Both the position numbers and the translations under genes were made by a program. DNA of 64,000 nt from Azolla caroliniana. Lineage: Eukaryota > Plantae > Polypodiophyta. This document shows, piece by piece, positions 6,961 through 42,979 of this stretch (position 1 is the first letter of the stretch; every line of letters starts with the position of its first letter). A model generated the notes under the pieces. The model was given only the letters and a program-made list of their open reading frames with translations, was not told the DNA's origin and ran no database searches. The stretch spans positions 10,974,001-11,038,000 of the forward strand of contig JBHGNT010000015.1 in NCBI GenBank assembly GCA_043228905.1, in the 5' to 3' direction.

Positions 6961-7348
6961 TAATAAAAGAATGGACATAACTAGTAGGGGATTGACTTTT
7001 ATTAATACTTTATTGCCTTTATTTTAACATATTTATACTTTGTGGCTTATTTGCCCTTATCCCTACCTGCTACACATTCTCTCTCTATCTCTCTCTATCT
7101 CTCTCTTACTTTCTGCTCGGTTACCATTTTTTTTACCCCATGCACTTACCTTTGATTCCATTATACGTCCAAATAGTTTTGTCATTAGTGAGCCAATCAT
7201 GATGGTTCAATAGTTGTTTACGTTATTTACTTCTTCATCTTTATGTAAAGGTTTGATCCAATTTGTGGTCCAATCGTACGACATACCATGTTGCAATGCA
7301 TGATTAAATATATCTCTTATCAATGCACGTGCTTCCTTTCCTGCCCAT

Positions 7349-7812
7349 TGTTATCTATGGGACAAAGGGCACCAGGTGTGAAACAAATCTAAAGAGACGA
7401 TTAGGTCAAGTAGGTTAAAAGGGAATCGGCCGAGCACTGGTAGCCGAGGAAGGTTGAACGAAATACATTCAGCCGAGAATAAAGGTCGTGAGTTAGGAGG
7501 AAGTAGCTAAAGCGTGCCAAGGAGAGAATAGCCTATATAAATCGTGGAACAACAGAAGGAAAGGGAGAGCGAATATATGCATAGGTTATGATACAGAGAG
7601 AGAAAGTGACTAATATAATCAGGCTTGTGTTGCCTTGTAATCAATTTATCCAATAATCAATATACATATAAGTTTTGGGTCATCTATATGTCTGTTCCAT
7701 CTTAATCTGTATTTTCAGTTCTATTATTCTAAGTCGTAAGTGGAAAGTCGAATGTGGTCAGCTATTGCGTAAAGATGAATCATCTCAAAGACGCATTTCT
7801 CGTAGAACTACA
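7349..7812 (+). repeat. Probable LTR
   Basis: TG...CA ends with imperfect inverted termini (TGTTATCTATG / CGTAGAACTACA), TATA box at about 7533; no TSD or PBS found. Confidence 0.4.
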
Positions 7813-8439
7813 GGAACATTTGCGCACGACGCAAGCCCTAACCGACTTCTCATAGCAAACAATCGAGCAGGTGGTTGCTCATGTCCTAACATTGGACAGA
7901 GCTCAAACTAGTACATCTTTCTCAATGGGCTCACTCCAAAATGCCTTGCCAACACACGAAGAAACCCAATTTTCGCAGGCACTCCAATGCACGACATGCT
8001 TGAATTCTGACCACTTAGTCGTGGATTGCGCTCTTCGACCACAGTGCCCGATCTGCCACTCCCGCACGCATATGGTAGAGCAATGTGAATATAATCTACT
8101 CAATCACACAACCACTGCTCCTTTGTTGTTAAAAAACGTGTATTTTACACATAGAGTACGTTTTAGAATACCCACACATATTCTAAACGTATTCTACGTT
8201 TTGGAACTGTCATTCTTTTATAAGCCTAAATTTGTAAATAATTAAAAAAATACTTTTGTAGGGCTTTTTTTAGTAGTGAAATCCGAAAAAGTAAACAATT
8301 GGGGTTTTTTGTTATGACTCACGAGTGTCTTCATTTTGTAGGTTAAAGGTTTTAACTTTTTACTCAGGTCTTTAGAAGCAGCCTGTAGGAAGCAAGCATT
8401 GTTTTAGTTTATTTTCAAAGGTAATTTCGTCATAATATA

Positions 8440-9975
8440 TGTGCATGTATGAATGATTTTGTTCTGTTTATGCCCAAATGCAATGTGGATTAAAATCTGT
8501 TTAGAGGGTCTCAAAACATAAAATATTTCAGAAAATTCAGAAAATTCTAAAATAGATTTGAAATTTTCTATGAAATCTAGATTAAGTAACATACATTATT
8601 GAGAAAGAGGGCTGAAATTAAAAATTCCATTATGTGATGACTTCCCTGTATATTAATTAACTTATTAAGTAACATATATGGAGATGATATTAAAGTAATT
8701 ACCATAGAATAACTTGCATATTACATATGCATGTTTGAAATCTAAATGATTTATGTGTGGTTATGCCCAAATGTAAGTGGATTAAATATATGTCTTGAGA
8801 GTATTTAAGTATTTATGCTCAAGATTTTAGAAAAAACTCTGAAATAGATTTGAATTTTTTTAATTTTCTATTGAATCTAGATTAAGTAACATACATTATT
8901 GAGAAAGAGGGTTGAAATTCAAATTTGTATTACGTGATGACTTGCCCATATAGTTAATTAACTTATTAAGTAACATATAGGGAGATGATATTAAAGTAAT
9001 TACCATAGAATAGCATGCATATTACATATGCATGTTTGAAATTTGAATGATTTATCATTTATGTGTGGTTATGCCCAAATGCAAGTGGATTAAATATATG
9101 CCTTGAGAGTATCTAAGTATTTATGCTCAATATTTCAGAAAATACTCTAAACTAGATTTGAAATTTACTATAGAATCGATTAAGTAGCATATATAATGGA
9201 GAAAGAGGGGTGGAATTTCCATTATGTGATGAGTCATGACTTTCCCGTATAGTTAATTAACTTATTAAGTAACATATATGGAGATGATATTAAAGTAATT
9301 ACCATACAATAGTAAGATACAAATGCATGTTTAAAATTTGAATGATTTCTATGTGTTTATGGCCAAATGCAAGTGGATTAAAATCTAATTGAGAAAGAGG
9401 GCTGAAATTTTCGTTATGTGATGACTTTCCCGTATAGTTAATTAACTCATTAAGTAACATATAGGGAGACAATACTAGTAATTATCATAGAGTTGTAACA
9501 TACATACGCATGTTTGAATTAATACTCTGTGTTTATGCCTAAATGCAAGGGGATTAAAATTTGGTTTGAGGGTCTTGAGGTTGTTTATGCCCAATATTTC
9601 AAAAAAACTCTGAAATAGAGGTGAAATTTTCGTATTTTCTTCAAAAATACCACTAATGAAACCCCGAAGGCACCTAGTGAGGGGGATCACTTGCCCTTTT
9701 AGTCAAAGTAGTTTATCTAATTGAGAAAGAGGGCTGAAATTTCGATACAATTCAATGTGACATTGTGGATTCATGAATAATTTATGGCTAAAATCATATG
9801 TTTTAATCATATACATTATGACATTCTGGATTCAATGTCCATGAATAATTTATAGTTAAAATCATATGTTTAAATGATATACATCTGTCATCTTCACATT
9901 GTGGATTCATGAATAATTTCTTGTTAAAATCATATGTTTAAATGATATACATAATCACATTGTGGATTCATGAAT
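8440..9975. repeat. Degenerate tandem repeats in the hAT 5' region (about 190-330-bp units, then ~60-bp units)
   Basis: GAGAAAGAGGG.TGAAATT anchor recurs at about 8600, 8900, 9199, 9391 and 9723; ACATTGTGGATTCATGAAT recurs from 9760 to 9975. Confidence 0.85.
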
Positions 9976-10037
9976 CTAGGACAATATAAAAGACAACTCT
10001 CGAGTCTCTAGAACTTGATATCACCAATTAAGCAACT

Positions 10038-12754
10038 ATGTCACGCAAAGAATCTCCCTTATGGGATAAATATTGTTTGAACAAACAAGTTGGGAAGTCA
10101 TCTGGGTCCTATTATTGGGATTGCCGATTTTGTGGTCTTCATGGGACTGGGACACTAACACGTTTAGTTGCTCACCTTGCTAGAATTAAAGGTGAAGGTA
10201 TAGACAAGTGTGTGCAAGTAACTCTCAAGGCATATCAAGAGGCTATAGCAGTAGCACAAGAAAGTGAATTAACTCTCACAAGAAGCAAAAACGCATTAAA
10301 GAAGTGGAAGCCATGGAACAACAAATTGAGCTTAAAGAAGGCATGGTGGATTCAATGGTTGATTCCATGTTCCAATCACAACCATCAATAGCTAGCACAT
10401 GTGCCTCATCTAAGAAGGATACAATTGACCAAATTCCTATGGATATTGAAGATACAGAAGGTTCAAGAAGAGAAAGTCTCACTCAAAGCACCATAAGGAG
10501 AGGATCAAGTGATGCTATGTTGATCAAGAAAGACCATGCAAACACAATGTTGGTTAGATGCATTGTGGAAGGTAATCTATCTTTTAATCTTTTGAAAATG
10601 TCATGTTGGAGGAACATGTTGCTAGCTTTCTCTGAGATTGGGGAAAAGCATAGTGGCATTACCTACAATGATTTAAGAGTTAAGTATTTAAAGAAAGAGC
10701 ATTTGAATGTGCAACACAAAGTGGAAAATGTGAAAGCCCTTTGGCCAAAATATGGAGTTACAATACTTTCAGATGGATGGATTGACACTAGCAAGAGAGC
10801 ACTTGTGAATATTTTGGTCTCATGTTGTTATGGCACTATGTCCCTTAAAACTATTGGTTGTAGTGGTGTTTCTACAAGGGTTGATGGTCCATGGTTGGCT
10901 GAAATGCTATCAATTGCAATAAAGGAAGTAAAAGCAGAAAATGTGGTGCAAATTGTCACTGACAATGCATCTAATTGTGTTAGCATGGGTCACATTCTAG
11001 AGACTGAATTCCCAAGCCTTGTATGGACTCCTTGTGCATCACATTGTCTAGATTTATTGGTAGAGGATATTGGGAAGCTGTCTTGGGTTTGTCGAGTGCA
11101 CAAGAGAACAATTTACGTGGTTAAACTATTCACCAAGAGGCTTGCAAGAGTTTGGAGAGCCCTTGAACAAACAGTGGTTAGTAACTATTGGGAGGATTGG
11201 AGTGACTCCAAAAAGCCAGATGCTGTCAAGGTGAAGTCTATTGTGCAAGACAACTCTACTTTGCCTTCAATTATGATTGTAATTTCTATTATGCGTCCAC
11301 TGTTTTCTGTTTTGTGCCTAACTGATTGTGAAGGATCTACAATGGGCTTACTTTATGAGTTTAGGAGGAGGGCTAGAGACACATTACAACGAGGAGCGAG
11401 AGAAGACACATCAAACAAAGACAGGTGATTTATTCTAATATTATTATTTCTATGTAGTATGTAGTATGTACAATTGCTATTTATTGCATCTTTTTCATTT
11501 CTTTGAATCATTGCTATCATCTATGTTATGCATATTTCCAGTAACTGATTTCTATATTATGCATATTTATGTTAATGCAGATATAAAGAGGTTTTGGAAT
11601 GCTTTGATTGTCGTTGGTCATGGTTCAAAAAGCCAATTCATATTGTTGCACATATTTTGCATCCTTTATGGAAGCCCAAAGATAAACCAATAGTTATGAA
11701 TGTAGAGATGCAGATGGATGGCTTGGTTATATTCAAAAGGTATATTCTATAGATGAATGTGAAATCTTACAAGATCAATTTGACATGTCTAGAAATGGTG
11801 TGGGTCGATTTAGCAATGAACTATCAAAATCACACATTGCAAAATGTAAACCTGTCTCATGGTGGGAAAGATATGGGGACAATGTGCCCTTACTACAATC
11901 ATTAGCTTGTAGAGTATTGTCTCAGGTATTATAGTTTTTTTTTATTGTTTTAATGTTATTAATCTTCTACAATGACATATGTTCATGTTGTTTGTTTGTT
12001 GAATACTTTGTGTCATAGGATTGCTCTTCTGGAGCTATTGAAAGAAATTGGAATGCACATGCGTTGGCACATACAAAAAGGAGGAATCGTTTGAAGGTGA
12101 AACAAGTCGAGAGATTAGTATATGTTAACTTAAGGCTTGTTAGGACCTTTCAAACTCATGTTGGTCTTCCAATGCAGGTCTGCATCTTTCTTATTCATAT
12201 TTGACATTTGACGTTTAGAGTCTACACAAGTAATTTATAGGTTAATTAACGAGCCTCGTTAATTGGTTATGGTTTTAAAATTATGAATCATGATCATGAT
12301 ACTAGAATATTATTTGATTTAGGTTAATCCAGATGAGATAGACATTGACAAGACTCCTGAAATGCCTCGATCAACGACTGATATTGACACTAAAGTCGCA
12401 CAAACATATTTTGAGGAAGCAGAGGCTATGCATATTGGTCGGGTTACTCGGAGTTGATCTAAGTTTGCCACTATGATAGTGGATGAAGGACTGGTAGGTT
12501 CAAGTTCTAGCACTACTAGAGGTGGTCATGTTCGTAGTCGTGCTTGTGTGAGAGTTTCAAGTACAAGAAAGGTACTTACTCGACAAGCTACAAATATTCC
12601 TTGCAATGCTGAATATGGTAATGATGATGGAGAACAAAAGGATGAAGACATTGACAATGACACAATTGATTCATCTTCTGATAGTGATTATGTGGACAAC
12701 TATGATGATACAACAACTGAATCCTCGAATCATGATGTAGAAGAGGAAATATAA
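10038..12754 (+). pseudogene. hAT transposase (BED zinc finger, DUF659-type catalytic core, C-terminal dimerisation domain), intron-containing and disrupted
   Basis: WDCRFCG...RLVAHLA; ILSDGWID, VVQIVTDNASN, WTPCASHCLDL; PVSWWERYGDNVPLLQSLACRVLSQ and IERNW...RNRL; frameshift near 10300 and several stops. Confidence 0.88.
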
Positions 12755-15700
12755 TCGAAAATAGAATGGAGATAATTTATTACTGGTTTTTACATATTTA
12801 TTTGAATTAGAGAACCAATAACTATGAGTATGAAGAAATTCTAACTTCTAAATTAGTAATTCTAATAGTGTTTTGATCACTCATTCACTTTCCATGATTT
12901 GTGTGTTGAAATGATATGTTTTTTTATTTGAATTTCAAACTTCAATTGTGTTCTCCACTTTCATTTTAATTTTTAAAATATGTATATCACGTGTATTGAA
13001 ACATAGATAACCATGTGGTATCCATGGACAATAAAGATAATTGGTATTTACTCTATAGTACTCAAATTTCAAGTATCTTTGTACTCAATGTATTTAACAA
13101 ATTTAACGTATTTAATGAATTTAGTGTATTCAACGAATTCAACGTATTTAACATATTTAATGTATTCAACATATTTTACCTTTAAAATACGTATTCTAAG
13201 AACTTATATATATATATTTAGAATACTTATAAAATACGTAGCATACGTATTGTATGCGTACAGTATGCTACGTATGTTACAACCATGCACTGCTCCAGTA
13301 CGCCTAATCAATCCTCGCCATGATCACCCTCGACAGGATGATCGTCAGGGTTCACCACCTAGATTTCGAGAAGCTGAGTGACACCGGTACAACGAACGAT
13401 ACCGACGTGACGATAGGTATTTGTCCAAAGAAGATCGTTATCGGCCAGACAATCGGTACCAGCCCGAGGAGGATCGTTATCAGCTGAACACTGGGTACCA
13501 GCCCAAGGAAGATCGTTATCGGCCATGGGAGGAACGTTATCAACTAGTGAATGACTACTACCGATACGTTCGGAATGAGAATTATGACCCAAGACATCAT
13601 TTCGACCAAACGCACGATCGACGGCCTCATCAACATAATCGAGGTCATCAACAATCAGGAAATATTCGATGACCTCAACATAATCAACGTCGCGACCCAC
13701 CGCGTCCAGATTATCATCAGTCGTCTTCTCACACTTAGCCTCGAGAGGATTCCCACCGAGCACAGCAGTACACCGCACTACCCAGAGAAGAAAACCCACG
13801 GCCCTATCAAACATCTCAATTCGAGCCAGGGGAGTCAAGCAATTCGGCGCCGATCACATGTTTTAACTGCAATCAACCAAGGGATTATGCCACACAGTGT
13901 CAAGTCATTGATTGCGGCAAAGGTCCTGTCATTAATATCATCACGGCCAAGGTCCAACAGGTTACAACAAGAAGAAAGACCCAACACACGCAATGGGAAG
14001 TCCAGGATGAAGTCCAACAAGCCGCGACAGAATGGGTTGAGAAAACTAATAACACAAATGTCGATCGCATGCATACCGAGATGAAAGATATCATTGTCGG
14101 TACGTCGACCTCTTCACAGCCCACCAGGCCGCCGGACGACGACCCCATTTGGCAGGCACTCACTAGTTGCCCGATAACCATGCCCTTAAATAAGCTCCTG
14201 CAACTACTTCCATTGTTCAAGGACATGGTGGCATCCTTAACTACTGGCAAAGAACAGACAACCATGCCTGTGCACCTTGGTGAGCCGAAGGAAGGTTCAC
14301 CACTAATAAACTTCCAGAACCCCACTATCAAGATCGTTATAAAAGGGAGGGATGTCCACTACTGCATTATCGATGGAGGATTAGGGGTCAATGTCATTAG
14401 CGAAGCCACGTGTCAAGATCTCGGTATCACCCAATCAGAGCCATGCCCATTTTGGCTCCGTATGGCGGATACATGATCCATCCGACCAATGGGTTTAATT
14501 CGACACCTCGATGTTATTATGGGAGGCCACACTTTCACGATTTCGGTGGTAGTGTTACGCCTCGACACTCTAGGCACTTACCCGATCGTCCCTGGTTATG
14601 CACGACCAACATTAACCAACATTGGTAACAAAATATGATATCATTCCGACGCGAAAAAACAAAGGTTTGTGTCATCACAGAGGTGCGAATCTATACCCCA
14701 CAAGACACCACTCCATTATACGCAGATGTCATTCAGATGCTCGAGGGACTCGTCAATGAGGAAGTCCACCACTTCCTGGAGGACCACTCGACGATTGTTC
14801 CATTGTTCAAGATCAACATCATAACAACCGCCAACCCTTATGTCTCCGAGCAGGCCAAAGAAGAGAAATATATCAACCGAGAACCCGATCCGAAATCGGT
14901 CGATGAATTACAATGTGCACGCAAAGCGCTCGAACATGAGCTTGAAATATCTCAAGGTGTGAAGGCATCAACACTAGAGGAGATTAATCTTGGCACCACT
15001 ACAGATCCACGAAAACTAAAAATAGCAAAATAATTGGCATCCGATGAACGCTCAACATTGGTCAGGTGGATCACTGAATACCATAATGTTTTTGCATATC
15101 GTACAGTGACATGAAGGGGTTAGACCCGGCACCAGATCCATCTGCAGCATGATGCATGACTTGTACAACAATGTCGCTACAAAATGAATCCTAATTATGC
15201 AGCACAAATGGAGGAAATCGACAAACTCCTTAGGGTGGGTTTTATTCAGCCAATCAAAAGGGCAACATGGTTAAGCCCTATCGTGGTCATTCCAAAACAA
15301 AACAGACAAATTAGGGTTTGCATCAACTACGGAAAGCTAAACGCAACGACCATCACCGACTCATTTCATCTTCAGTTTACGAATGGTGTGCTCGATGTTG
15401 TGGCAAGCCATGAACACTATAGTTTTTTGGACGGATTCAATGTGTACAATCATATCCGCATGCACCCCAACAACCAAGAGAAGACAACATTTGTAAGAGA
15501 ATGGGGTGTTTTTGTTGAAGTCATAATGATGTTCGAATTGAAAACGGCATCAGCCACCTTCCAATGTATCATTGTAGAAACTTTCGATGACTATATTCCG
15601 GCCTTCATGCAAGTCTTTCTCAACGATTTTGTTTTCTATGGCCGACAAATAGAGCATCTCGATCAGTTATGCCTCTGCCTCGATCATTGTCGACAAGCCC

Positions 15701-29000: not shown

Positions 29001-30413
29001 TGTTCATTATTTATTTTATTTATTTATTTATTTGAATTATTTATTATTATTAGTTATTATTATTATATTTTAAAGTAGTATTATTTGTTTTGAGGGTTAG
29101 TTATATTTATATTTATATTTTAAATTTACTTACGTGTTATTGTCTATAATGTGTTTGGTCAACGAGGGAGGGCTAATAACGAAGAGTGAGGGAACCGGGG
29201 ACGGTTCGAAGGCCGCTTCTCTTCGAACCGTGGGAGGGCATTCGGAGAGTGTCGCTCTTCGAACCGTGAACCGTGGCTGGGCGGTTCAAGGAGTGCTTCT
29301 CTTCAAACCGTGGGTGAGCGGTTCGAAGAGTACCGTGGGACCGGAGGGTGGTTCAGTAGGCGGGTCATCTCTTCGAACCGCAGGTGGGCGGTTAGAAGAG
29401 CACCGGGGCCAGTTCGAAGAGTGCAGCACCGGGGGATTCGAAGAGTGCAGCTCTTCGAACCGTGAAGGGAACCAGTTCGAAAAGTGTTTCTCTTCGAACT
29501 GGGGGGTGGTTCGAATAGAGGACCGTAGGGGGATGCAACAAAGCCACGAGTGAAGGTGGCGCACAGGAGGTGGTACGGCAAAAAGCGACCTCCATCGACA
29601 AGAGGACCGCAAAAACGACGCGTAAGTCGTCGTGGCCACCACATGGGGTGGAGAGTCTTGTGGACAACATGTGGGCATTGGTGGGAGCCGAGTGAGAGCG
29701 TGAAAGAAACAGATTTTGGACCTACCCAAGGGGATGTGCGACTGACCGAGGAGGAGGCGGTGGTGAGAAGCAACACTCGGAAGGCGTGGAGGAGAGTAGT
29801 AGAGGGGTAGGAACGAGGGTAGAGTGCACAACAAGAGGGGCTAGGGAGCAACACAGAAGGAGGAGAAAGTGCGGTGAGGGAGAAGAAAGAGTGTTGAGGG
29901 GGAAAGACGAGTGGGGGTAGGAGGGTAAAAGTGAGGAAGGTAAAAAAAAGAGTGGGGAGGGGAAAAAAGAGGGGGAGGGGAAAAGTAGTCTAATCGTAGG
30001 ACGGAAAAAGGGGGAAGGAATTAAAAAATTAGCACTAAAAATAACCATTAAACATATCCTTTAAAAGAAATAAAAATTAAATAGAAAATGAGTAAAAATA
30101 ACCGATCTAGGTACCACTAAAAATAAAAGATAAAAATTATAAATAAAATAGATGATAAATGCTAATAAATGTACAAAAATAATAGGACAGGAAACAATGC
30201 ATTGAATTTTATTTTCTAGTAAAGAAATAAATAAATAATATTTAGAATACTCCATAATAATAATAATAAATAAATAAAATGACTAATCAAAAAATATAAA
30301 ATAAAATAAATAACAATAATAAATATACAAAATGATGATAAATATACCAAAATAATAAGAATAATGAAACAAAAATAACAACAAAACAAATAGCAATATA
30401 AATAAATAAATAA
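26069..30413 (-). mobile_element. Probable 3' accessory region (degenerate extra ORFs plus low-complexity UTR) of the Athila-like element at 42149-51391; continues at about 18330-19043
   Basis: Contiguous with 42149 once the Sola-like element and one TSD copy are removed; broken Pro/Thr-rich and coiled-coil ORFs on the minus strand; no known domain recognised. Confidence 0.55.
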
Positions 30414-30438
30414 GGGTGAAAGCATGCGAGTGGAAACA
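30414..30438 (+). repeat. Left TIR
   Basis: GGGTGAAAGCATGCGAGTGGAAACA. Confidence 0.95.
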
Positions 30439-30767
30439 ATTAGCTATGTCCTTGACATAGCTAATTAGCTATGCAAAAAAGCTACCATTGATAAATAGTC
30501 ATTTTAGTAAAAAGCCATCATTAATAAATTAAGTATGCAAAAAACTACCATTGAAAATACTAGAGTGTTTTAATTACATATGTAAATGAGTGCCATAAAT
30601 GTGCAACATAAATTGATGTGTGCACCATAAATGTGTACCATAAATTATATATTGAATTCCTAGGTCCATTATGCATGATCCTTTGCCACATCACGTAGGC
30701 CATCTCTAGTTGAGTACTATGGGTTAGTTGCTACCACTGTTGCTAAACCCTATCGAGTCCACTTGCC

Positions 30768-31540
30768 GCCACTCTACACTGAGGGGCCGCTACTGTGCGT
30801 TCCAAGCATCATCAAAGAGCTGCTCAATCTGACGGGGTTCTCTTCTCTGTGACACTCTACACTCAGGGGCCACTACTGTGCATTCCAAGCATCATCAAAG
30901 AGCTGTTCAATCTGACGGGGTTCTCTTCTCTGTGCCACTCTACACTCAGGGGCCATTACTGTGCGTTCCAAGCATCATCAAAGAGCTGTTCAATCTGAGG
31001 GGGTTCTCTTCTTTGTGCCACTCTACACTCAGGGGCCATTACTGTGCGTTCCAAGCATCATCAAAGAGCTGTTCAATCTGACGGGGTTCTCTTCTCTTTG
31101 CCACTCTACACTCAGGGGTTGCTACTGTGCGTTCCAAGCATAATCAAAGAGCTATTCAATCTGACGGGGTTCTCTTCTCTTTTCCACTCTCACTCAGGGG
31201 CCGCTACTGTGCGTTTCAAGCATCATTGGTAACTGTTCAATCTGACGGGGTTCTCTTCTCTTTTCCACTCTCACTCAGGGGCCGCTACTGTGCGTTTCAA
31301 GCATCATTGGTAACTGTTCAATCTGACGGGGTTCTCTTCTCTATGCCACTCTATTCTCAAGTGCCTTCTATGTGCGTTTCAAGCATCATCGGTAACTGTT
31401 CAATCTGACGGGGTTCTCTCCTCCATTGCCATCATTCTATACTCAGTTGCCACTACTGTCCAGTCCCGGATTGCTTCCACATTTCGATTTGACGGAGTTC
31501 ACTCATCCAACGGCAAGATTCTACACTCAGTTGTTGCCAT
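30768..31540 (+). repeat. 83-bp tandem array (about 9 units) upstream of the transposase
   Basis: Equivalent positions at 30795, 30878, 30961, 31044 and 31127; later units are ~81 bp and progressively diverged. Confidence 0.95.
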
Positions 31541-31754
31541 TGGTCGGTCTTGGATCGCCTCCTCAACTGTTGGATCCAACAGAGTGAAATCCTCTACTGT
31601 TCGGTCTTGGATTGCAATAACTTTTCTGTCTATTGATTATCTTGTGTATTGTTGTGTCTAATCTTGTGTATTGTGTGGAATATTTTTGTGTATTGTTGTT
31701 GCCCATAGCCATCTTTAATACTTGTTTTTTTTTCTGGAAATTTAGGGTTTTAAC

Positions 31755-34700
31755 ATGTCTAGCCAAATGGAAGGGGAAGAAGGGTGTTTAGAATTACCCC
31801 TCAATGATCATAAGGATAGGGATGATGTTATCAGGACACAACAAGCCATACGAAACTATTGGGCAGAAAAAAAAAGGAAACATCGTCAATTGTTGAAGGA
31901 TACGAAAGCCACACTCAGTAAAGGTAAGGATAGTTTAGCTGAGAATGTAAGTAATGCGACTACCATCATAGAGAGAAAGGTTGTAGACTATTTCAATGTT
32001 CAAACCAAGCACATCAGCAATGAAGAAAAGAAGGTAGTACTTTATGGAATATGTAATGATCCATCGATAAAGGACTTAGTTGATTGTGATGGTCTTAATG
32101 CAAACATATCATCTATTTTAGTAAATAATCTTCGTAATAGTTTCGTATCCATGAGCAGGTCAGAAGATGATCTTGTCTTAAAAAGGTCTAGTCTAATGAT
32201 GTTACTTAATAGTGATGTTGACGATATAAACATCAGTGAGCTATCTAAGGTAATTGGTGTTAGTAGAAAAACAGTGTACAATACAATGAACCGTATAATT
32301 TTCTCGGGTGAAGGAACTAGTCTACTAAAGCTAACTACAAGATGTAAGCCAATGACACCCATAACATTTGAAATCAAGGATGTAATCACAATGTTTTGGA
32401 CTAATGAGAGTAGGGTTTCACCCAATAAAAAGGATTTATGCAGGAAACGTGTTGGAAGAAATCAATACGAGGAGCATCCCATTCATCTTCTTGATGTACC
32501 TCAAGTATTTACATTTATCTCAACATTTGTTTTGACTCTACTCGGAAAGTTAATTAGCTCAGTTAGCAGAAAAGCTAATTAGCTTATCAGTTACATTTAC
32601 CTCAGTTAGCTACTAGGATCGCTACTACATAGGTAACTAGCTACTCTCAATAGTTACTACCATGATAGCTAATTAGCTATTCTCAATAGCTAATTTAGGT
32701 ACTACCAGATAATTAGCTGTACTGCTAGCTAGTTAGCTATTTCGTTATTACCAGCTAATTAGCTACTAGGAAAGCTAATTAGCTACCATGATAGCTAATT
32801 AGCTACTATGATAGCTACTACATAGGTAACTGGCTACTCTCAATAGCTACTACCATGATAGCTAATTAGTTAGGATAGCTAATTAGCTACTAGACCAGCT
32901 AATTAGCTACCATGATAGCTAATTAGTTACTAGGAAAGCTAATCAGCCACCATTATAGCTAATTAGCTACCATGATAGCTAATTAGCTACTAGACCAGCT
33001 AATTAGCTACCATGATAGCTAATTAGTTACTAGGAAAGCTAATCAGCCACCATTATAGCTAATTAGCTACTAGACCAGCTAATTAGCTACCATGATAGCT
33101 AATTAGCTACTAGACCAGCTAATTAGCTACCATGATAGCTAATTAGTTACTAGGAAAGCTAATCAGCCACCATTATAGCTAATTAGCTACTAGACCAGCT
33201 AATTAGCTACCATGATAGCTAATTAGCTACTAGACCAGCTAATTAGCTACCATGATAGCTAATTAGTTACTAGGAAAGCTAATCAGCCACCATTATAGCT
33301 AATTAGCTACTAGACCAGCTAATTAGCTACCATGATAGCTAATTAGCTACTAGACCAGCTAATTAGCTACCATGATAGCTAATTAGTTACTAGGAAAGCT
33401 AATTAGCCACCATGATAGCTAATTAGCTACTAGACAAGCTAATTAGCTACCATGATAGCTAATTAGTTACTAGGAAAGCTAATTAGCCACCATGATAGCT
33501 AATTAGCTACTAGAGCAGCTAATTAGCTACCATGATAGCTAATTAGCTACTAGGACAACTAATTAGCTACTAGGACAGCTAATTAGCTACCATGATAGCT
33601 AATTAGCTACTACGACAACTAATTAGCTACCATGATAGCTAATTAGCTACTAGAATAGCTAATTAGCTACCATGATAGAGTAGAATAGCTAATTAGCCAC
33701 CATGATAGCTAATTAGCTACTAGACAAGCTAATTAGCTACCATGATAGCTAATTAGTTACTAGGAAAGCTAATTAGCCACCATGATAGCTAATTAGCTAC
33801 TAGGACAACTAATTAGCTACTAGGACAGCTAATTAGCTACCATGATAGCTAATTAGCTACTACGACAGCTAATTAGCTACCATGATAGCTAATTAGCTAC
33901 TAGAATAGCTAATTAGCTACTAGAATAGCTAATTAGCTACCATGATAGCTAATTAGCTACTACGACAGCTAATTAACTACCATGATAGCTAATTAGCTAC
34001 TAGGACAACTAATTAGCTACTAGGACAGCTAATTAGCTACCATGATAGCTAATTAGCTACTAGAATAGCTAACTAGCTACTAGAATAGCGAACTAGCTAC
34101 TAGAATAGCTAATTAGCTACTAGGATAGTTAGCTAGTTACGAGAATAACTAATTCCCCTTTATTACGCAGGTCGATTTATTTATTAGGTTCAAACGAATG
34201 CATCCAACTATCAAAGTTCAACTACGAACATTCGAGTCTCTTAAGCCACGCTTTGTGAGACGCTTAAAGGATCGATACACATGTTGTTGCATTTACCATG
34301 TACAGATGGGTTTTCTGAAGGACTCTGTTAATCTACTACGTCACCATAGCGCATCCCTAACTAATACAGTTTGCACATGTGGGTGCCCAATCTGTCGATC
34401 AAGCCCGCAAGAGGAGTGTAAATCATCTGAGCACGTTATCTCTTCCATGAGTTATTTATTAGATTCAATATTGTGTCCGAGAGAAACTGACGCTATCTTC
34501 CATATTCATAAATGTGTCATGGGTTTATGTCAAGATTGTGGCCCTACTAGATTTAGGTGGTGTCCAAATGAATTGAGTAGTGAAATATTGATCTCTGTGA
34601 AGTTATTTGAGTCAGTGAACACCAATTTCGAAGGAAAGGTGTGTAAAAGAAAGGATCTAGTTCGGAAGATGCTTAAACCAAGGGATTTGGTGTCTCTATT

Positions 34701-36012
34701 TGTAGTATCTCTAGGAAAGTTCATTAAACACAACTTCATTTATTCATGGCAGGCCCATCAGTTTAAGACTTGCATATCTGATTTCCCAAATGATGTAGTA
34801 GTCTCAGTAGTAGATTTCGCAGAGAATTATACTTTCAAGCAGCAGAATGAAATTCAATCTATGCATTGGTGTTCAGTTCAGGTAACCATTTTTGTGCACA
34901 TAACATATTTTCGAGTTTCAGGTGATGTTAAAAAAGTAATTCATTTCTTTATTTCCGATGATAAGAAGCATGATACCTTGTTCGTCCAACACTGTTTTAA
35001 GTTACATTGGCAGTGGTTATTAGCTCAACGTTTGGAGCTTACTCAACATTGGGTCTGGTTTGACGGAGCTGCGTCACAATTCAAGGCTCGACGTCCATTT
35101 TATTTTGTGGGGAGGTATCCTGCTATAACAGGTTTGGAGATGAGATGGAATTTTTTTGGGTCTGGCCATGGTAAAGGTGAACATGATGGTGCAGGGGCTG
35201 TTATAAAGCGGGCACTTACCCATGAACAACTAAAGACAGATGGTGTGCACATGAATTGTGCATCACATGTAGTTGAATTTTTAAGAACAAATATGTCGAC
35301 GAGTGCCACAGGTGTTTATTCCTCGCAAGTTCGAGATATCAAACATGAATTTTGGGAAGTGAAGATAGATGAAGTAAATAGGGAGAAGACCTGGGAGTGC
35401 CAAGGAATTCCCGAATTGCGATCTCTGCATGCTGTTCGCGGTTATTCCAGGTTGGATGGTCATTGTATTGCGGTTAGAGAATTGACTTGTTTTTGCTTCC
35501 ATTGTGTGCAGGGAAATTGGAGATATTGTCTAAACAAAGCATACATTCAGAATTGGGAGTATCACACTCTGAATGATAAGGAAGCAGTTGATGGAGAAAC
35601 AGGGCAGAATGCTGACTTCACATATGAGGGACTTCGAGATACTTTGAGTGATGTCCTGAACGTTGGGGATAACTTCGATGTAAATGCTGAAGAAGGCAAT
35701 TCAGAGGGTGTTGATTTCTATATATTAAAGTGCACGGTTAGTAAACAGTGTGCAAGGCAGAATATTGTAGATGCATGGGGAAATTTTGTATCTGCCGGGA
35801 CATTCTACATCGAAGGCATTTTTTATGCAAAACTAGATGACTACGAATATGTGTACAGGCTGTTAGAAGACAAACCAGCGGCGTATATGTACTCTCATTT
35901 GGTCAAATGCATCAACGTCCCAATGTCAGAATACAATAGCTGCTCCGGTTTATACACTGTTGGTGCTAATGTGTATGAATGTATTTACAATAGTATGCCA
36001 TGGAATTTGTAG
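31755..36012 (+). CDS. Sola2-like DDD/E transposase, two exons (31755-32504 and 34171-36012), about 863 aa, open
   Basis: Phase-0 GT(32505)..AG(34170) intron gives HLLDVPQ|VDLFIRFKRMHP; motifs CCCIYH, VVDFAENY, QNEIQSMHW, FISDDKKHD, WFDGAASQFK, WNFFGSGHGKGEHDGAG and C-terminal CFCFHC. Confidence 0.85.
32550..34140. repeat. Intronic array 1 of the palindrome TAGCTAATTAGCTA, 20-bp period with a 120-bp higher-order repeat
   Basis: Register is conserved line to line from 32881 to 33660; lines 33061, 33181 and 33301 are identical; lies wholly inside intron 32505-34170. Confidence 0.97.
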
Positions 36013-38144
36013 CTACAAGTAGCACTTACCATGTTCTCTTGTAAAACAAACATGTATTTCGCGAAAACAGATCAATAAATTCGTTTGGAATCAATTTCTT
36101 GTATACAGTCTACTTTCTGTGCTTCTTTCTCAATAAAATCATGTCTTTTTTGTTAAGTTTTAAGTTATAAGTTATAGCGAAATAGTCATCAGTAGCTAGT
36201 TAGCTGTACAAATGCAGCTAATTAGCTGTCAATAGCTAAATAGTCATCAATAGAATGAAATCAACAATCTGCAACATATTCCTCAAATTACACAGTAGAT
36301 AAGTACAGTGGGAACAAGTAATTAAATTCTTCATTGAATAATGTCATCTCTTTACATATTTATAAATTACCATTGGAAATGTCTACAAATCTCCTATAAA
36401 CAGCTAAGCTCTTGCTAGTCAGTGGAACGAGTCTACATATATTATCCGCATATTGAGCTCGGTATGGAGTCCACAACCATGCACCTAGTTGGCTGCTCAC
36501 TGTTTGCACCAGGTACTGTTCAGGCATTTCCTCGGGTAGAATGAGACAGCATCTCCGAATATTGAAGTAGTGTCGGAAATGTTCTGTATCCAAAATCAAT
36601 GTATTGTCGGCATTATATTCAGGCCAAGTAGCCCAAAAATCAGAAAGTCTCTTGAATCTTGCAGCTTCCATTTGCTCACAATTTTCTCGTGCCCATTGAC
36701 CTTTAAAACGACTTCGCCATTTTGGGAAGAATCTTGCCAAACACTTCCACACATCTGATTTTGGTTTTTCACTCCAAATAAACAAATCAAAGTATTCCAC
36801 AGCCCACTCTAGAAACTGATTTGCGTCCCTCCTTGGCTGCATATATCTCACACTCATCAAGACTTTATCACGCTCCAAGATCAAGGCTCTTCTTTCGACT
36901 TCTAGTGGTTTAGGTTTCCATTCCTGAAACTGAGCCGCTGTTACACCATTTTCTGGTAGGATACGATCAATCTCAATCAGCTCAGGTTCGGCTGACACAA
37001 CTGGTGTCCTTTTCCTCTTTAAACCCCTAGTCGACTGTGTTGGGCCTAGCTTCACATTCTGGTGCTCTTGTTTTGTCGACTTAGTTATCAATCCTTGGAT
37101 TACCTCAGTGCATGTAGCTACTGTTCTGCTCGATATCAGTCCACTGGTATCACATGCTGCATCTACCTGCAACACCAAGTCATCCGTGCTACATGCTTGA
37201 TCAACTTGTGTGACCAGATCACTTGTGTCAGTTGCTACATCTACTTTCAAGATGGGGCCCTTTAAACATGCCGCAACATCAACAGTATCCACACTGCCAT
37301 TGGCCTTACGAGCAATAGAATCAAACCCTTTAGACTCTGCAACATCAGAAAACACCAACATATTCACACTCACAAAGTAACTAATAGTCTCACAAAACAA
37401 TATCCTGAACATCAAAGAGTTTTAGTCATAAAACAACACTCTTCAAATTATCTTGGAAAAACATCATAGAGTTCCATTACATAATGTGGATCAAGCAACA
37501 ACCAATTTGAGGTTTTACTTGTCCAACAAGATAGTAAAACTTCATAAAACCCTAGCAAAATCCCTAAGCTAACAATCATATCCAACTAAATAGTATTTCG
37601 CTCCACTACGTCTGGGCCCCTTGACCGAGTAACTGGTCTTGTTCCCGATCGTGGCCCCTTCTTCAGCCTTTTTCTGGTTGGTTCCCCATTTAGCCTTGCT
37701 TCTAGGACCCAATGCGCAAGTGTGTCCTCCTCCGACAACCTTCCCATCGCCTCAGCAGCTAATTGCACATCAGCCGTTTCTTGAACTAGCTTTTCAAGTA
37801 CAGAGGGATCTGTTTGGACATTTTCAGTAGTTGGGCTCGGTGGGGTGGAATCAAGGTCTTGAGACTCGAAGAAATGTTGCATCAAGTGTTCATAAACACT
37901 GTTGTTGTGAACCTCAGTTTTACATGTTGTTTCCACTATTTCATGGCATTTCACATCGTTGCCTAATTCAGTACACTATTCCAAAAGAATAGGGTGCAGC
38001 TGATCTGAAGGAGATGTGATAGCAGGACTCTTACTTTCAGCCACATTGGCAGTAGTATCCTCATCTGTTGCAGCATCATCAGCACCAGACACATCATGTG
38101 CCGTCCTTAATCCACAAGATTCTACAATAACATGACAGTTATTT

Positions 38145-39775
38145 AGGATAGTTAATTAGCTACTTTACTAAACTATGGTAGAAGCTAGGATAGCTAATTA
38201 GCTAGTACGATAGCTAATTAGCTAGTATGATAGCTAATTAGGTACTTTACTCAACTATGGTAGTAGTTAGGATAGCTAATTAGGTACTTTACTCAACTAT
38301 GGTAGTAGTTAGGATAGCTTATTAGCTACTAGGACAGCTAATTAGCTGCCAGTAGCTAATTAGCTACTAGGATAGCTAATTAGCTGCCAGTAGCTAATTA
38401 GCTACTAGGATAGCTTATTAGCTACTTTACACAACTATGGCAGTAGCTACTAGGATAGCTAATTCGCTAGTAGGATAGCTAATTAGTTGCCAGCAGCTAA
38501 TTAGCTGCCAATAGCTAATTAGCTAGTAGGATAGCTAATTAGGTACTTTACTCAACTATAGTAGTAGCTAATTAGCTGCCAGTAGCTAATTAGCTAGTAG
38601 GATAGCTAATTAGGTACTTTACTCAACTATAGTAGTAGCTAATTAGCTAGTAGGATAGCTAATTAGCTACTAGGATAGCTAATTAGCTGCTAGTAGCTAA
38701 TTAGCTACTAGGATAGCTTATTAGCTACTTTACACAACTATGGCAGTAGCTAATTAGTTACTAGGATAGCTAATTAGTTGCCAGTGGCTAATTAGCTAGT
38801 AGGATACCTAATTAGCTTTTTTACACAACTATAGTACTAGCTAATTAGCTAGTACCATAGCTAATTACCTACTAGGATAGCTAATTAGCTAGTAGGATAG
38901 CTTATTAGCTACTTTACACAACTATAGTAGTAGCTAGGATAGCTAATTAGCTACTATGGTAGCTAATTAGCTACTTTACTCAACTATGGTAGTAGCTAGG
39001 ATAGCTAATTAGCTACTTTACTAACTATGGTAGTAGCTAGGATAGCTAATTAGCTACTTTACTAACTATGGTGGTAGCTAGGATAGCTAATTAGCTACAA
39101 TGAAAGCTAATTAGCTACTTTCTCAACTATGTAGTAGCTAGGATAGCTTATTAGCTACTAGGACAGCTAATTAGCTGCCAGTAGCTAATTAGCTACTAGG
39201 ATAGCTAATTAGCTGCCAGTAGCTAATTAGCTACTAGGATAGCTTATTAGCTACTTTACACAACTATGTCAGTAGCTAATTAGCTACTATGATAGCTAAT
39301 TAGCTAGTAGGATAGCTAATTAGCTAGTAGGATAGCTAATTAGTTGCCAGTAGCTAATTAGCTACTAGGATAGCTAATTCGCTAGTAGGATAGCTAATTA
39401 GTTGCCAGTAGCTAATTAGCTAGTAGGATAGCTAATTAGTTGCCAGTAGCTAATTAGCTAGTAGGATAGCTAATTAGCTTTTTTACACAACTATGGTACT
39501 AGCTAATTAGCTAGTACCATAGCTAACTAGCTACTAGGATAGCTTATTAGCTACTTTACACAACTATGGCAGTAGTTAATTAGTTACTAGGATAGCTAAT
39601 TAGTTGCCAGTGGCTAATTAGCTAGTAGGATAGCTATTTAGCTTTTCTACACAACTATGGTACTAGCTAATTAGCTAGTACCATAGCTAATTAGCTACTA
39701 GGATAGCTAATTAGCTAGTAGCTAATTAGCTAGTAGGATAGCTAATTAGAAAAGACTAAGCTTATTAGCTACAGT
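38145..39775. repeat. Intronic array 2 of the palindrome TAGCTAATTAGCTA, mixed 17-, 20- and ~37-bp units
   Basis: Same core as array 1; bounded by a minus-strand GT donor at 39784 and an AG acceptor at 38122. Confidence 0.95.
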
Positions 39776-41199
39776 ATGGTATACCTGTTTGTTTTCTCTA
39801 CTCATTTGGTAGAGTTGTACTGCAATCTCCCAAACAGAATGCAGCAATTCGACAGGCATGTTGAAAACAAAGCAGATGGTATGTGTGGTTGCATGGTTGT
39901 AGGTGAACCAACAAAGACGCAGTTTTGTCCTCCACACCTAACCCGCAAGCGATGCAACGTGCTTGAACTGTCAATAAATCATTTTCCGGTTCTACTTCAT
40001 TTGGTAAGGGAGCAAGAATGTTCAGGTCCAAATCCTGTCTGGTCCTTACCATTCCCTCCACAAAATGTAGCTTCTTCTTAAGGCAGCTAACTACATGTTC
40101 TTGATGAATGTATTGTTCCTTCAACGCAACAGAGAAATTTACCGATTAATTATTCTTGTTGTTGAAAGATACACCAACTTTGCTCAGGAATCGTTAACTT
40201 ACTTGAAGCTTATCCAAATTGTAATCTGCAACAGTATTTACACCTAGAAGGTCCAGGTTCATTGAAAGAACCTGGATCTCTATTTGCAGTTCTATTTTAC
40301 GCTGGGGATCCAGTGGCCCCTCTAATTCAAGCTCCTGTTGCGCAACCTATTCCAGATAATGCTTGATTAGCACATTTTACCCGTTATTTATAACACAATC
40401 ACATACCAGCAAAACAATAGTTACCTGAATCTTATTTCTAATTGTTGTAACAGCAGAAGTAACTTTGCTCTCCATTGCAGAAGCCATTGTGGCTTTCTCT
40501 AAATCAGTCTTAAAAAATGCCAATGTCTCACAGGCTTCATGGACATTTTTTAGCATATAGCTAACCAATGTCTCACCTGTATCATCGACATTGGCTTTCC
40601 TTGGGTGTCGGTGTGGTGTATGCCCCCGGTCTTGCTGGGAGTCGGCAGTTGCATCAACAGCTGCCATGCTCCAAAATCTGTCTATTTTTTGTGCCAAGGT
40701 CCCCATCTTTCGGCATCTTTTTACCGATGCCTCACCATAGACTACCCAAGCTACCCTATACATTTCAGGGTCTCTAGATTCCTTCGTTGTTTTGCAGTAC
40801 TCATATGCAAATGCTCTAGCAAATGAAACTGACAACTCATTGTTGACTGGGATCTCCTGATGAACTTTCTAGTGCAGTCTCATGCAGTCATCGTACAAGT
40901 CGGCTCGTACATGCTTCAGCTTGACCTTGCCTTTGACTCTAGGCACTGTATATACTGTCATCCAGTCTATATCATTGATCAATTTATCACTTAGGACAGC
41001 AGGGTCAACACCCTCGAGTGACAGACCATAGGTGTTGTGGAAGTCCTCCTTTGTCTCGCAAAATTTTGCGAAGTTTAGCACTCTCGTATACGGAGGAACG
41101 AGCCATCTGAAATATCATTTCAGAAATCAGAAATAGTGCAAAATCAGAATATGTGAGAATCAAAAACCCCAATCAACAACAACAAAAATGGTGCAAAAT

Positions 41200-41595
41200 C
41201 TTTAACTTAGCAAATCAGAAACCCTAATCATAATTTGTATTCAGAAATTTGAAATCAGAAACCCTAATCAAAATCTGTAATTAGAAGTTTGAAATCAGAA
41301 ACCCTAATCAAAATCTGTAATCAGAAGTTTGTAACTAGAAACCTTATTCAGAAATTCTAATCAAAAATTTATAATCAAAAACCCTAATCAGAAATTTCAA
41401 TCAGAAACCCTAATAAAAAATTTCAATCACAAACCCTAATCAGAAATCCTAAGCAGAAATTTATAAACAAAAACCCTATTCAGAAATTCTAATTTGTAAT
41501 CAAAATTTGTAACCAGAAACCCTATTCAGAAATTCTAATCAGAAATTTATAATCAAAAACCCTAATCAGAAATTTCAATCACAAACCCTAATCAC
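41200..41595. repeat. Telo-box (AAACCCTA)-rich minisatellite in the first intron of the cargo gene
   Basis: About ten AAACCCTA(A/T)T copies interleaved with AATCAGAAAT units. Confidence 0.85.
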
Positions 41596-42119
41596 TAAAG
41601 ACAGGATTAAACACAAAAAAAGTAATATAAACACACCTGTTGCTACTCCCCGATTTGCGAGACATCCTTGTATGGGACTCCAAGGACTTCACCCTATTCG
41701 ATTTTGGGGAAATATGAATCGGCACCAAAGTTCAAACAGTAGTCAAAAAGAAAAAACAAATGTTTGGGGTTTCTGTAACTGAAACATACCAAGACGATGA
41801 TCGAGCGGGTTCTGTGTTGTAGCTCTCAATCTGCAATGTCGATTTTTTGCTGTTGCGGGAGCTACGTTTGCGTTTGTGCTCTGAGTACTCCATCTGCGTT
41901 CAAAATCAGACTTAGGCTAAACAGGAAATTGATGACATTGAAGTCGACCTTAGATGATGGTGATATTCCCCAAGTTCCACTACGTCTGAAACAGAAGTTC
42001 AAATATTTGAGTTTTTTCATAAATTAGTTTTTCAAATATTTGATTTTCCCACAAAAAAGACTAGCTAAACAAATAGCTAATTAGCTATGGCCATTTTAGT
42101 AGCTAATTAGCTATAATAG

Positions 42120-42144
42120 TGTTTCCACTCGCATGCTTTTACCC
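42120..42144 (-). repeat. Right TIR
   Basis: Reverse complement GGGTAAAAGCATGCGAGTGGAAACA. Confidence 0.95.
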
Positions 42145-42979
42145 ATAAGGTAAAAGGGACAAAAAGTATGGGCTAGGGTATTTGTTTAATGGGAACGGTA
42201 AGAGAGATTGGGGGAGAAGACGGGTCGAGTAGTTGACGATCGAAGTGACATAAGGCGTGGTGAGGGGGTATCGTGGTTTGGTGTGGGCTAAGATTTATGT
42301 GCGGATGGTAGAGTTGGACGGGAATCCATCGAGGGTTTTGTGAGAGTTTGGGAAAATTAGGGGCTTTTGGGTGGGTTTGAGGTTTTGGGTGTGTGGGGGT
42401 GGGGGATGTGTTGTCCGAGTGTTGTCAAAGGGCCTTTGTGTGCCTTTAAGGACCCAGACTTGTGGCGTCTTTTCAGGGGGGAAAGGGGCGGTCTATGAGG
42501 TAGTTCTATGGGGAATTTGGCCTCCTAGGTGCTGAATTTGGTTAATGCATATTGCCTTAACCTGGGTTGGGTACTTGGTTGATGTTTGTAGTTGTCGGGT
42601 GTCATGTGCAGTTGCGGTATGGTCACGGGTGGGTAGCCAACTTCATTTTGGGACCCAAAATCGAGTGGCACCTTTGTGCCAACCTTGGGCGTTTGTGAGT
42701 TCTTTTCGAACTCGCCAAACAACACATTCTCCGCGGCGTGGTTCTTCGGTGAAAGTCGCGTGGACATTCACCCACTTGTGCGGCATGGATGTCCTTGTTC
42801 CAATGTTAGCGTTACTCAGACCTTGGGTGATCGGTGGTTTTGTGAGTTCTTTTTGGTTGGGTGTTTTCACACTCTAGAGTTTGTCGAGATTGGTTGGAAG
42901 TGGTTCGAGTGTTGTTGCAACGAGTTTTTCGAACTTCACACCATTTGCAATTTGGAAGGAGACAATGTTCTTGCTTGGT

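What the first reader, a model, noticed from the sequence alone, without database searches (positions are those of the whole stretch)
32505..39784. Twin introns of nearly equal length built from the element's own subterminal palindrome
Seen: the transposase intron (32505-34170, 1666 bp) and the cargo-gene intron (38122-39784, about 1663 bp) are each filled with dozens of TAGCTAATTAGCTA palindromes. The same 14-mer lies beside both TIRs (30458-30471, 42074-42087, 42100-42113) and, degenerate, between the two stop codons (about 36190-36240). The arrays have different unit structures, so they expanded separately yet match in size. Inference: if the subterminal motif is the transposase or cargo-protein site, the introns are binding-site sponges or loading platforms hidden by splicing. 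Because the genes converge and the motif is self-complementary, the introns could also form hairpin or sense-antisense dsRNA. Either would be a built-in autoregulation or anti-silencing module that I do not recognise from described TIR elements.
Basis: partly seen in the sequence, partly recalled or inferred. Interest (0 to 1): 0.88.

Follow-up and report, generated by a model that had tools for sequence, protein, structure and literature searches.

The report
Self-motif arrays in Sola2 transposon introns
A two-gene plant jumping element fills two introns (splicing partly inferred) with about 130 copies of the short DNA word found at its tips, and related elements do the same with their own words, so the copies are likely docking sites for a protein the element makes, while the equal intron lengths are probably chance.

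Summary
An 11.7-kb Sola2-type DNA transposon (25-bp TIRs, 4-bp TSD; host probably a fern) has two convergent genes. The transposase intron (1666 bp) and cargo-gene intron (1663 bp) hold 66 and 68 copies of a 14-bp palindrome that also lies beside both TIRs and nowhere else in the window. The transposase intron is real and old: same codon in 18 loci (92-2015 bp), intronless relatives, one short RNA-like junction. The equal size is probably chance: a 447-bp perfect repeat shows recent growth, and a 95%-identical copy has 1000 bp. Hairpin RNA is not conserved, because the sister family's array barely folds. What is conserved is the layout: each family in one clade piles up its own word in introns, after the stop codon and, where visible, at the tip. 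This is best read as binding-site accumulation for an element-encoded protein (binding untested), as described for VANDAL/VANC and Spm/TnpA, so the logic is known. New here are a Sola2 case and an undescribed cargo protein (unknown domain, RING, FCP1-like). Earlier notes of this scan report similar layouts in other transposons.

The parts
30410..30413 (+). Left 4-bp target-site duplication ATAA (the left flank is itself an AT-rich repeat)
30414..30438 (+). Left TIR, 25 bp, starts GGG; 1 mismatch to the right TIR
30439..30471 (.). Subterminal hairpin and the left 14-mer (30458-30471); L002 has the same hairpin core with its own arm letters
30768..31423 (+). 83-bp x 8 tandem repeat upstream of the transposase; lacks the 14-mer
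31755..32504 (+). Transposase exon 1, 250 aa, with a weak HTH match at aa 147-181
32505..34170 (+). Transposase intron, 1666 bp, phase 0; motif array 32572-34119, mostly 20-bp spacing; perfect 120-bp higher-order repeat 32957-33403
34171..36012 (+). Transposase exon 2, 613 aa, Sola2-type DDD core; no motif copies
36013..36359 (.). Region between the two stop codons with three degenerate motif copies (36193, 36215, 36233)
36360..37336 (-). Cargo gene last exon, NIF/FCP1-like domain (5' boundary approximate)
37589..38121 (-). Cargo exon, low-complexity linker, stop codon at 37978; its donor site was not found
38122..39784 (-). Cargo array intron, 1663 bp, phase 1 (splicing inferred); motif array 38149-39771
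39785..40130 (-). Cargo RING-like exon, stop codon at 39800 (5' boundary approximate)
40347..40424 (-). 78-bp cargo intron, spliced out in contigs of two RNA-like runs
40425..41106 (-). Cargo exon with a conserved ~150-aa helical domain of no Pfam family; stop codon at 40871
41107..41636 (-). 530-bp cargo intron with a different repeat, spliced out in contigs of two RNA-like runs; lacks the 14-mer
42074..42113 (.). Two right subterminal 14-mers (42074-42087, 42100-42113)
42120..42144 (-). Right TIR, followed by the duplication ATAA at 42145-42148

Best explanation
This two-gene Sola2-type transposon carries its own subterminal palindrome about 130 times in two introns, and these copies are likely DNA docking sites for a protein the element encodes, most likely the transposase, which would load onto and help activate copies of its own family. 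Shown: the element anatomy, the motif distribution, the old transposase intron, family-specific motifs shared between intron, post-stop region and tip in relatives, and recent array growth. Inferred: binding; which protein binds (transposase HTH about 55%, cargo protein 30%, neither 15%); and a positive, anti-silencing or loading outcome, taken by analogy with VANC, TnpA and AtMu1. Introns are where sites can pile up without touching the proteins; slippage or unequal exchange would set the length, so the 1666/1663 match is a snapshot.
For: The motif is confined to the element's non-coding parts: 0 in exon 2, 0 outside the element. Top intron 8-mers are enriched after the same element's stop codon in 5 of 13 loci tested (window, L002, L004, L005, L006), and these fall in one 9-row clade (95/86) yet use different words. 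L005 shares only an 8-bp core between a 146-bp intron unit and a 24-bp post-stop unit, which fits retention of a short word better than block copying. L002 has an exact 12-mer of its array unit 60 bp from its left tip (0 of 1000 shuffles). The sister clade with a 92-bp first intron piles a related word into another intron instead; it recurs after the stop in 1 of 2 loci and as a 6-bp core three times at a putative tip. Spacing is mostly 20 bp, about two helical turns. Exon 1 has an HTH-like segment (Pfam HTH_11 E 1.2e-4, below the curated cut-off; three helices at 139-182 in a low-confidence model). One RNA-like contig joins 30480 to 42107, a derivative that keeps little but the tips. Precedent: PMC5735166; bioRxiv 10.64898/2026.08.24.746577 sections 4 and 7.
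Against: No binding, methylation or transposition data. In 7 more distant loci the intron words were not enriched after the stop, and L001 had only 89 bp to test (windows for distant loci were placed approximately). Two off-family signals appeared in L006. The tip tests for L002 and L016 were negative with the top-five 8-mers and positive only with a wider or shorter word set chosen afterwards. 11 of 18 located introns have 5% or less tandem cover, and an intronless clade exists, so arrays are not needed by plant Sola2 elements in general. The 83-bp upstream repeat and the 530-bp cargo intron lack the motif. The arrays are CG-poor (18 and 6 CG cytosines against 92 in exon 2), whereas VANC silencing turns on mCG (PMC10398659). 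The cargo gene of this copy has three stop codons.
Confidence: 0.5

Rival explanations
1. Neutral by-product: subterminal sequence was copied into internal sites by aberrant gap repair or template switching, and the palindromic units then expanded by slippage wherever an intron tolerated them; gene conversion among many copies keeps the sites alike.
For: Arrays are unstable (447-bp perfect 120-bp repeat against 2.4-3.5% exon divergence to L001). The two arrays share a unit in the same orientation, as copying would give. Arrays are absent from many relatives. Co-variation of dispersed sites can arise from copying alone (inference).
Against: Only a short core, not the unit, is shared between sites in L005 and between spacer types in the window. 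The pile-up recurs in a different intron in the sister clade.
Confidence: 0.27
2. Sponge: the arrays bind the transposase but would titrate or misassemble it, lowering transposition (negative autoregulation).
For: About 130 internal copies against 3 at the ends. An extra internal transposase site restricts piggyBat activity (PMC11707139, passages).
Against: Repeated growth of arrays in several families is easier to explain if carriers gain copies (inference). Known dense motif clusters in plants are activating.
Confidence: 0.13
3. RNA module: the introns form hairpin or sense-antisense dsRNA that would regulate the element.
For: The window's intron RNAs fold far better than shuffles (z -28; -24 and -20), as do L001 and L004. 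The two introns are 73% alike over about 1.4 kb in the orientation that lets their RNAs pair.
Against: 6 of the 9 stretches folded come from other families; 5 of these 6 fold weakly (L002 z -2.4, L005 -3.2, L009 -0.5, L037 -2.0, L036 +0.3). Longest perfect stems are 18 and 32 nt and the longest perfect inter-intron match is 27 nt. Tandem repeats in VANDAL non-coding regions are targets of host RdDM (PMC10398659), so such RNA would more likely serve the host.
Confidence: 0.05
4. The two introns are held at matching length for a structural reason, such as looping or pairing the two genes.
For: Two independent lengths from the observed spread fall within 3 bp only 0.5-0.7% of the time (a coincidence picked after the fact). 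No second copy with both introns could be read.
Against: At least 240-360 bp of the transposase intron were added recently. L001, 95% identical in protein, has a 1000-bp intron with 37 units against 73, though its short-read assembly may have collapsed repeats. The same intron runs from 92 to 2015 bp in relatives.
Confidence: 0.05

Closest known systems
Sola2 DNA transposons (Sola superfamily)
   Same: Transposase motif series and spacing match the Sola2 alignment in supplementary file 2 of PMC3627910 (rows seen); 4-bp AT-rich TSD as stated there; short TIRs.
   Different: Carries a convergent second gene (unknown domain, coiled coil, RING, FCP1-like) and intronic motif arrays. Sola2 cargo described in that paper is Fanzor1. 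My searches listed no paper on plant two-gene Sola2 elements; the 2009 Sola paper and Repbase were not read.
VANDAL21/VANC21 and VANDAL6/VANC6 (Arabidopsis Mutator-like elements)
   Same: A short family-specific motif accumulates as tandem repeats in introns of two genes, intergenic and terminal regions; copy number varies between copies; related families use other motifs (PMC5735166, passages).
   Different: Other transposase superfamily; the motif here is a perfect palindrome at far higher density; no VANC homology was detected; binding and demethylation are shown for VANC and untested here.
Spm/CACTA TnpA and AtMu1 transposase as sequence-specific activators
   Same: Dense clusters of a family-specific motif bound by an element protein; AtMu1 transposase alone activates cognate copies (bioRxiv 10.64898/2026.08.24.746577, abstract and sections 4 and 7).
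   Different: There binding is at the termini; here nearly all copies are internal, in introns.
piggyBat inhibitory internal transposase site
   Same: Extra binding sites inside the ends (PMC11707139, passages).
   Different: One subterminal site, not intronic arrays; animal piggyBac superfamily.

Membership tests
Sola2 | DDD transposase with the Sola2 motif series | tested here: met
   D215, D298, D339 invariant in 42 aligned relatives; motif series compared by eye with Sola2 rows of PMC3627910 supplementary file 2
Sola2 | 4-bp target-site duplication | tested here: met
   ATAA on both sides; one copy only, and the left flank is an AT-rich repeat; feature
Sola2 | Terminal inverted repeats beginning GRG (the GRG rule is recalled, from no call) | tested here: met
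   25-bp TIRs starting GGG; similar left tips in L002, L016, L035, L062, L065
Sola2 | Groups with curated Sola2 transposases in a tree | not tested
   No reference Sola2 sequence was held; the tree used unclassified animal homologues only
VANDAL/VANC system | Mutator-type element with 7-12-bp TSD | tested here: not met
   Sola2-type transposase and 4-bp TSD; MULE TSD length
VANDAL/VANC system | Accessory protein homologous to VANC | tested here: inconclusive
   No Pfam family for the cargo N-terminal domain in 21 members; no direct comparison with a VANC sequence was made
VANDAL/VANC system | Family-specific motif in tandem repeats in introns, intergenic and terminal regions | tested here: met
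VANDAL/VANC system | Element protein binds the motif and removes DNA methylation | not testable with these tools
   needs EMSA, ChIP or methylome data
CACTA (En/Spm) | CACTA termini and 3-bp TSD (recalled, from no call) | tested here: not met
   GGG termini and 4-bp TSD
FCP1/SCP (NIF) phosphatases, for the cargo domain | NIF domain above the Pfam cut-off | tested here: met
   PF03031 30.7 bits against cut-off 21.8, E 3e-7
FCP1/SCP (NIF) phosphatases, for the cargo domain | Catalytic DxDx(T/V) motif (recalled, from no call) | tested here: not met
   Glu in place of the first Asp in the window and 4 of 4 close homologues; P0162 and L004 lack the second Asp
General host satellite | Motif present outside the element | tested here: not met
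   0 in 52,289 bases of the window outside the element; the rest of the genome was not available

The most novel reading that the evidence does not exclude
A clade of fern Sola2 transposons runs a third, independently evolved sequence-specific self-recognition and anti-silencing system, outside Mutator and CACTA: each family hides arrays of its own recognition word in whatever intron it has, and these are read by the transposase or by an undescribed accessory protein that joins an uncharacterised helical domain, a RING finger and a pseudo-FCP1 phosphatase.
Probability: 0.3. Interest if true: 0.75.

Novelty: new variant of a known kind. Interest (0 to 1): 0.5.

Why it matters
Sequence-specific self-recognition through motif arrays is documented for Arabidopsis Mutator-like and CACTA elements. 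A Sola2 clade in seed-free plants with the same layout, several families with different words, and a conserved second gene gives a ready comparative test of whether this strategy is general: each family's protein should bind its own word. The cargo protein is itself undescribed in the papers searched. The headline coincidence of equal intron lengths probably has no meaning.

Tried and rejected
No whole genome is held for the window and loci could not serve as genome handles, so no second copy with both introns was read. No RNA holder was listed for the stretch. No contig of the four RNA-like runs joined across the cargo array intron, and run X21 gave nothing; this is no evidence either way. 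Contig depth over arrays and exons in DNA runs was not used for array length, since it is no copy number and units map to several places; joints inside the arrays are ambiguous for the same reason. No array or transposase relative in viral contigs or genome contigs. No Rfam match in 30300-42300. Cargo N-terminal domain: confident model of homologue P0150 (pLDDT 88) but no Foldseek match at E 0.001, best VIA Z 2.6, and only weak Atlas leads; this shows neither a new fold nor a function. Its profile found no clear match in the 80 loci. Transposase exon 1 model was poor (pLDDT 59); fold and PDB sequence searches gave nothing at E 0.001. Literature: 0 papers hold the 14-mer; 0 hold all five terms; two searches returned unrelated papers. 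Earlier-finding look-ups by place, sequence and a second word set were empty. No complex prediction was run, since the open question is protein-DNA binding. Rejected: general satellite; insertion of a foreign repeat that breaks the transposase (in-frame join, conserved intron position).
Full report
Observation. The finding is accurate. The 14-bp palindrome occurs 112 times with at most one mismatch in the window against a shuffle mean of 0.00: 55 in 32505-34170, 54 in 38122-39784 and three beside the element ends. Exact copies number 27 and 29, copies with at most two mismatches 66 and 68; three degenerate copies lie between the stop codons; the 10-bp core is absent from the 52,289 bases outside the element. 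Spacing is 20 bp for 54 of the gaps in the first array and 35 in the second. The arrays differ in their commonest spacers but share one 20-bp unit in the same + orientation, so they have a common seed or have exchanged sequence.

The element. It spans 30414-42144, with 25-bp TIRs starting GGG (one mismatch) and ATAA duplicated on both sides. It lies among retrotransposon fragments. Exons 31755-32504 and 34171-36012 join in frame to an 863-aa transposase. Its motif series matches, by eye, the Sola2 rows in supplementary file 2 of PMC3627910 (files 13 and 14 not searched), three aspartates are invariant in 42 relatives, and that paper gives 4-bp TSDs for Sola2 (passages). Named homologues are from mosses, liverworts, ferns and conifers, and the only named cargo homologue is from the fern Adiantum nelumboides, so the host is probably a fern (inference). 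Four DNA runs labelled as four organisms (three studies) laid 6,226 to 14,638 contigs over all 30 bins, arrays included, so the arrays belong to the family and not to this copy alone.

Are the introns real? For the transposase, yes. Among 80 related loci (from a scan that stopped at half the collection), 13 have the two exons contiguous and one nearly so; the ten put in the tree fall in one clade (99/98). For 18 hand-picked loci including the window, one per near-identical group, both exon ends were located at the same codon; 12 show GT..AG exactly at the predicted places and 6 are off by a base or decayed; lengths run from 92 to 2015 bp. One contig from run X18 (RNA is the tool's guess; another organism label) joins the two exons in frame, but with only 21 letters on its short side and depth 4, below the tool's bar for a bridge. 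Two other cargo introns (78 and 530 bp) are spliced in contigs of X18 and X19. The cargo array intron is inferred: GT..AG, in-frame phase-1 join, and an annotated Adiantum protein with the same domain order (P0162; exon matches E 3e-13, 0.001 and 0.066).

The cargo gene. It encodes a conserved helical domain of about 150 aa (46 relatives; no Pfam family in 21 members; confident model of a homologue), a coiled coil, a RING-like finger and a NIF/FCP1-like domain whose first catalytic aspartate is replaced by glutamate in the window and four close homologues (the motif is recalled). This copy has three stop codons in it. A convergent gene with a NIF domain follows the transposase in L004 (E 7e-17), and RING-like or similar N-terminal stretches are seen by eye in other loci.

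Is the equal length meaningful? Probably not. Two random lengths would fall within 3 bp in 0.5-0.7% of draws, but the match was picked after the fact. The transposase intron holds a 447-bp stretch that is a perfect 120-bp repeat, while exons differ from L001 at 18 of 750 and 65 of 1842 sites, so 240-360 bp are much younger than the split between copies. L001 has a 1000-bp intron with 37 units against 73, with the caveat that short-read assembly can collapse repeats. I could not read a second copy with both introns, so this remains the untested part.

Is it an RNA module? The window's arrays fold strongly, as any palindrome array must. But of six stretches from other families only L004 does; the nearest sister, L002, gives z -2.4. 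Perfect stems reach 18 and 32 nt, and the longest perfect match between the introns is 27 nt within 73% overall identity. Self-complementarity is not the conserved property.

What is conserved. Six of the 18 introns have 40% or more tandem cover, one has 21% and eleven have 5% or less. Taking the five commonest 8-mers of each intron, the same words are enriched after the element's own stop codon in 5 of 13 loci (window, L002, L004, L005, L006); L001 had only 89 bp, and seven more distant loci were negative, with windows placed approximately; L005 and L006 share one word, and two off-family signals appeared in L006. The positive loci form one clade (95/86) and use different words. In L005 the intron unit is 146 bp and the post-stop unit 24 bp, sharing only an 8-bp core. 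L002 carries an exact 12-mer of its array unit 60 bp from its left tip (0 of 1000 shuffles), although the narrower test was negative there. The sister clade with a 92-bp first intron has a second intron near codon 565 filled with a related word; the word recurs after the stop in L074 but not L076, and its 6-bp core, chosen afterwards, occurs three times at the putative tip of L016. A short word that changes in step at separate non-coding sites, and moves to another intron when the first is small, is what selection for protein-binding sites predicts; copying plus slippage is the main rival.

Mechanism. Most likely the word is bound by an element-encoded protein. Its place beside both TIRs, a tip-only derivative (joint 30480-42107) and an HTH-like segment in exon 1 (weak) point to the transposase; the cargo N-terminal domain is the alternative. 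By analogy the arrays would load the protein on cognate copies and favour their activation (0.5); neutral expansion 0.27, sponge 0.13, RNA module 0.05, matched length 0.05. Binding and outcome are inferred, not shown.

Comparison and novelty. VANC21 target motifs form variable tandem repeats in the introns of VANB21 and VANC21 and in terminal regions (PMC5735166, passages), and these regions are also RdDM targets (PMC10398659, passages). TnpA needs dense motif clusters and AtMu1 transposase activates its own family (bioRxiv 10.64898/2026.08.24.746577, abstract and sections 4 and 7; its supplements are closed and could bear on Sola-type elements). An internal site can also inhibit (PMC11707139, passages). 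So the element works like these systems in layout but is not a member of them. Reviews say Sola occurs in moss and is rare or absent in flowering plants (PMC10741241, PMC9804982, PMC6839031; passages). Searches listed no description of a two-gene plant Sola2 with intronic motif arrays; the library lacks most subscription papers, and the 2009 Sola paper and Repbase were not seen. Three unchecked notes of this scan describe similar layouts in other transposons. Verdict: new variant of a known kind, interest 0.5.

Noticed in passing
window 36360-41689 (minus strand): The cargo protein family (uncharacterised helical domain, coiled coil, RING, FCP1-like domain without the canonical catalytic motif) seems to be a conserved accessory gene of plant Sola2 elements and may deserve its own study.
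   Followed up: partly
window 30439-30470 and L002:1815-1842: Both left ends have a hairpin right after the TIR with the same ATGTC..GACAT core, a flipped 3-base loop and family-specific arm letters.
   Followed up: partly
window 30768-31423: Eight copies of an 83-bp repeat upstream of the transposase that lack the 14-mer; L013 and L016 have 63-bp and 53-bp repeats in the same position.
   Followed up: no
window 41107-41636: A second cargo intron is filled with a different repeat (13/40-bp period, AAACCCTAATC-rich).
   Followed up: no
window 31755-32582: If the transposase intron were retained, the frame stops after 25 more codons, giving a short protein with the HTH-like segment but no catalytic core, a possible repressor form (speculation).
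   Followed up: no
window 30480-42107, 31790-35349, 35496-36714: Joints in RNA-like contigs of X18 point to a tip-only derivative and to internally deleted derivatives of the element.
   Followed up: no
L052:4300-5340: A lineage-specific second transposase intron near codon 565, filled with a related motif.
   Followed up: yes
L002:7740-8892: About 390-bp repeats that seem to duplicate an exon-intron unit of the second gene, with near-copies of the family motif on the minus strand.
   Followed up: partly
window 1-30400 and 42150-64000: Flanks are fragments of LTR retrotransposons (RT, RNase H, integrase, gag matches) and a DUF659 ORF at 10268-11428.
   Followed up: partly
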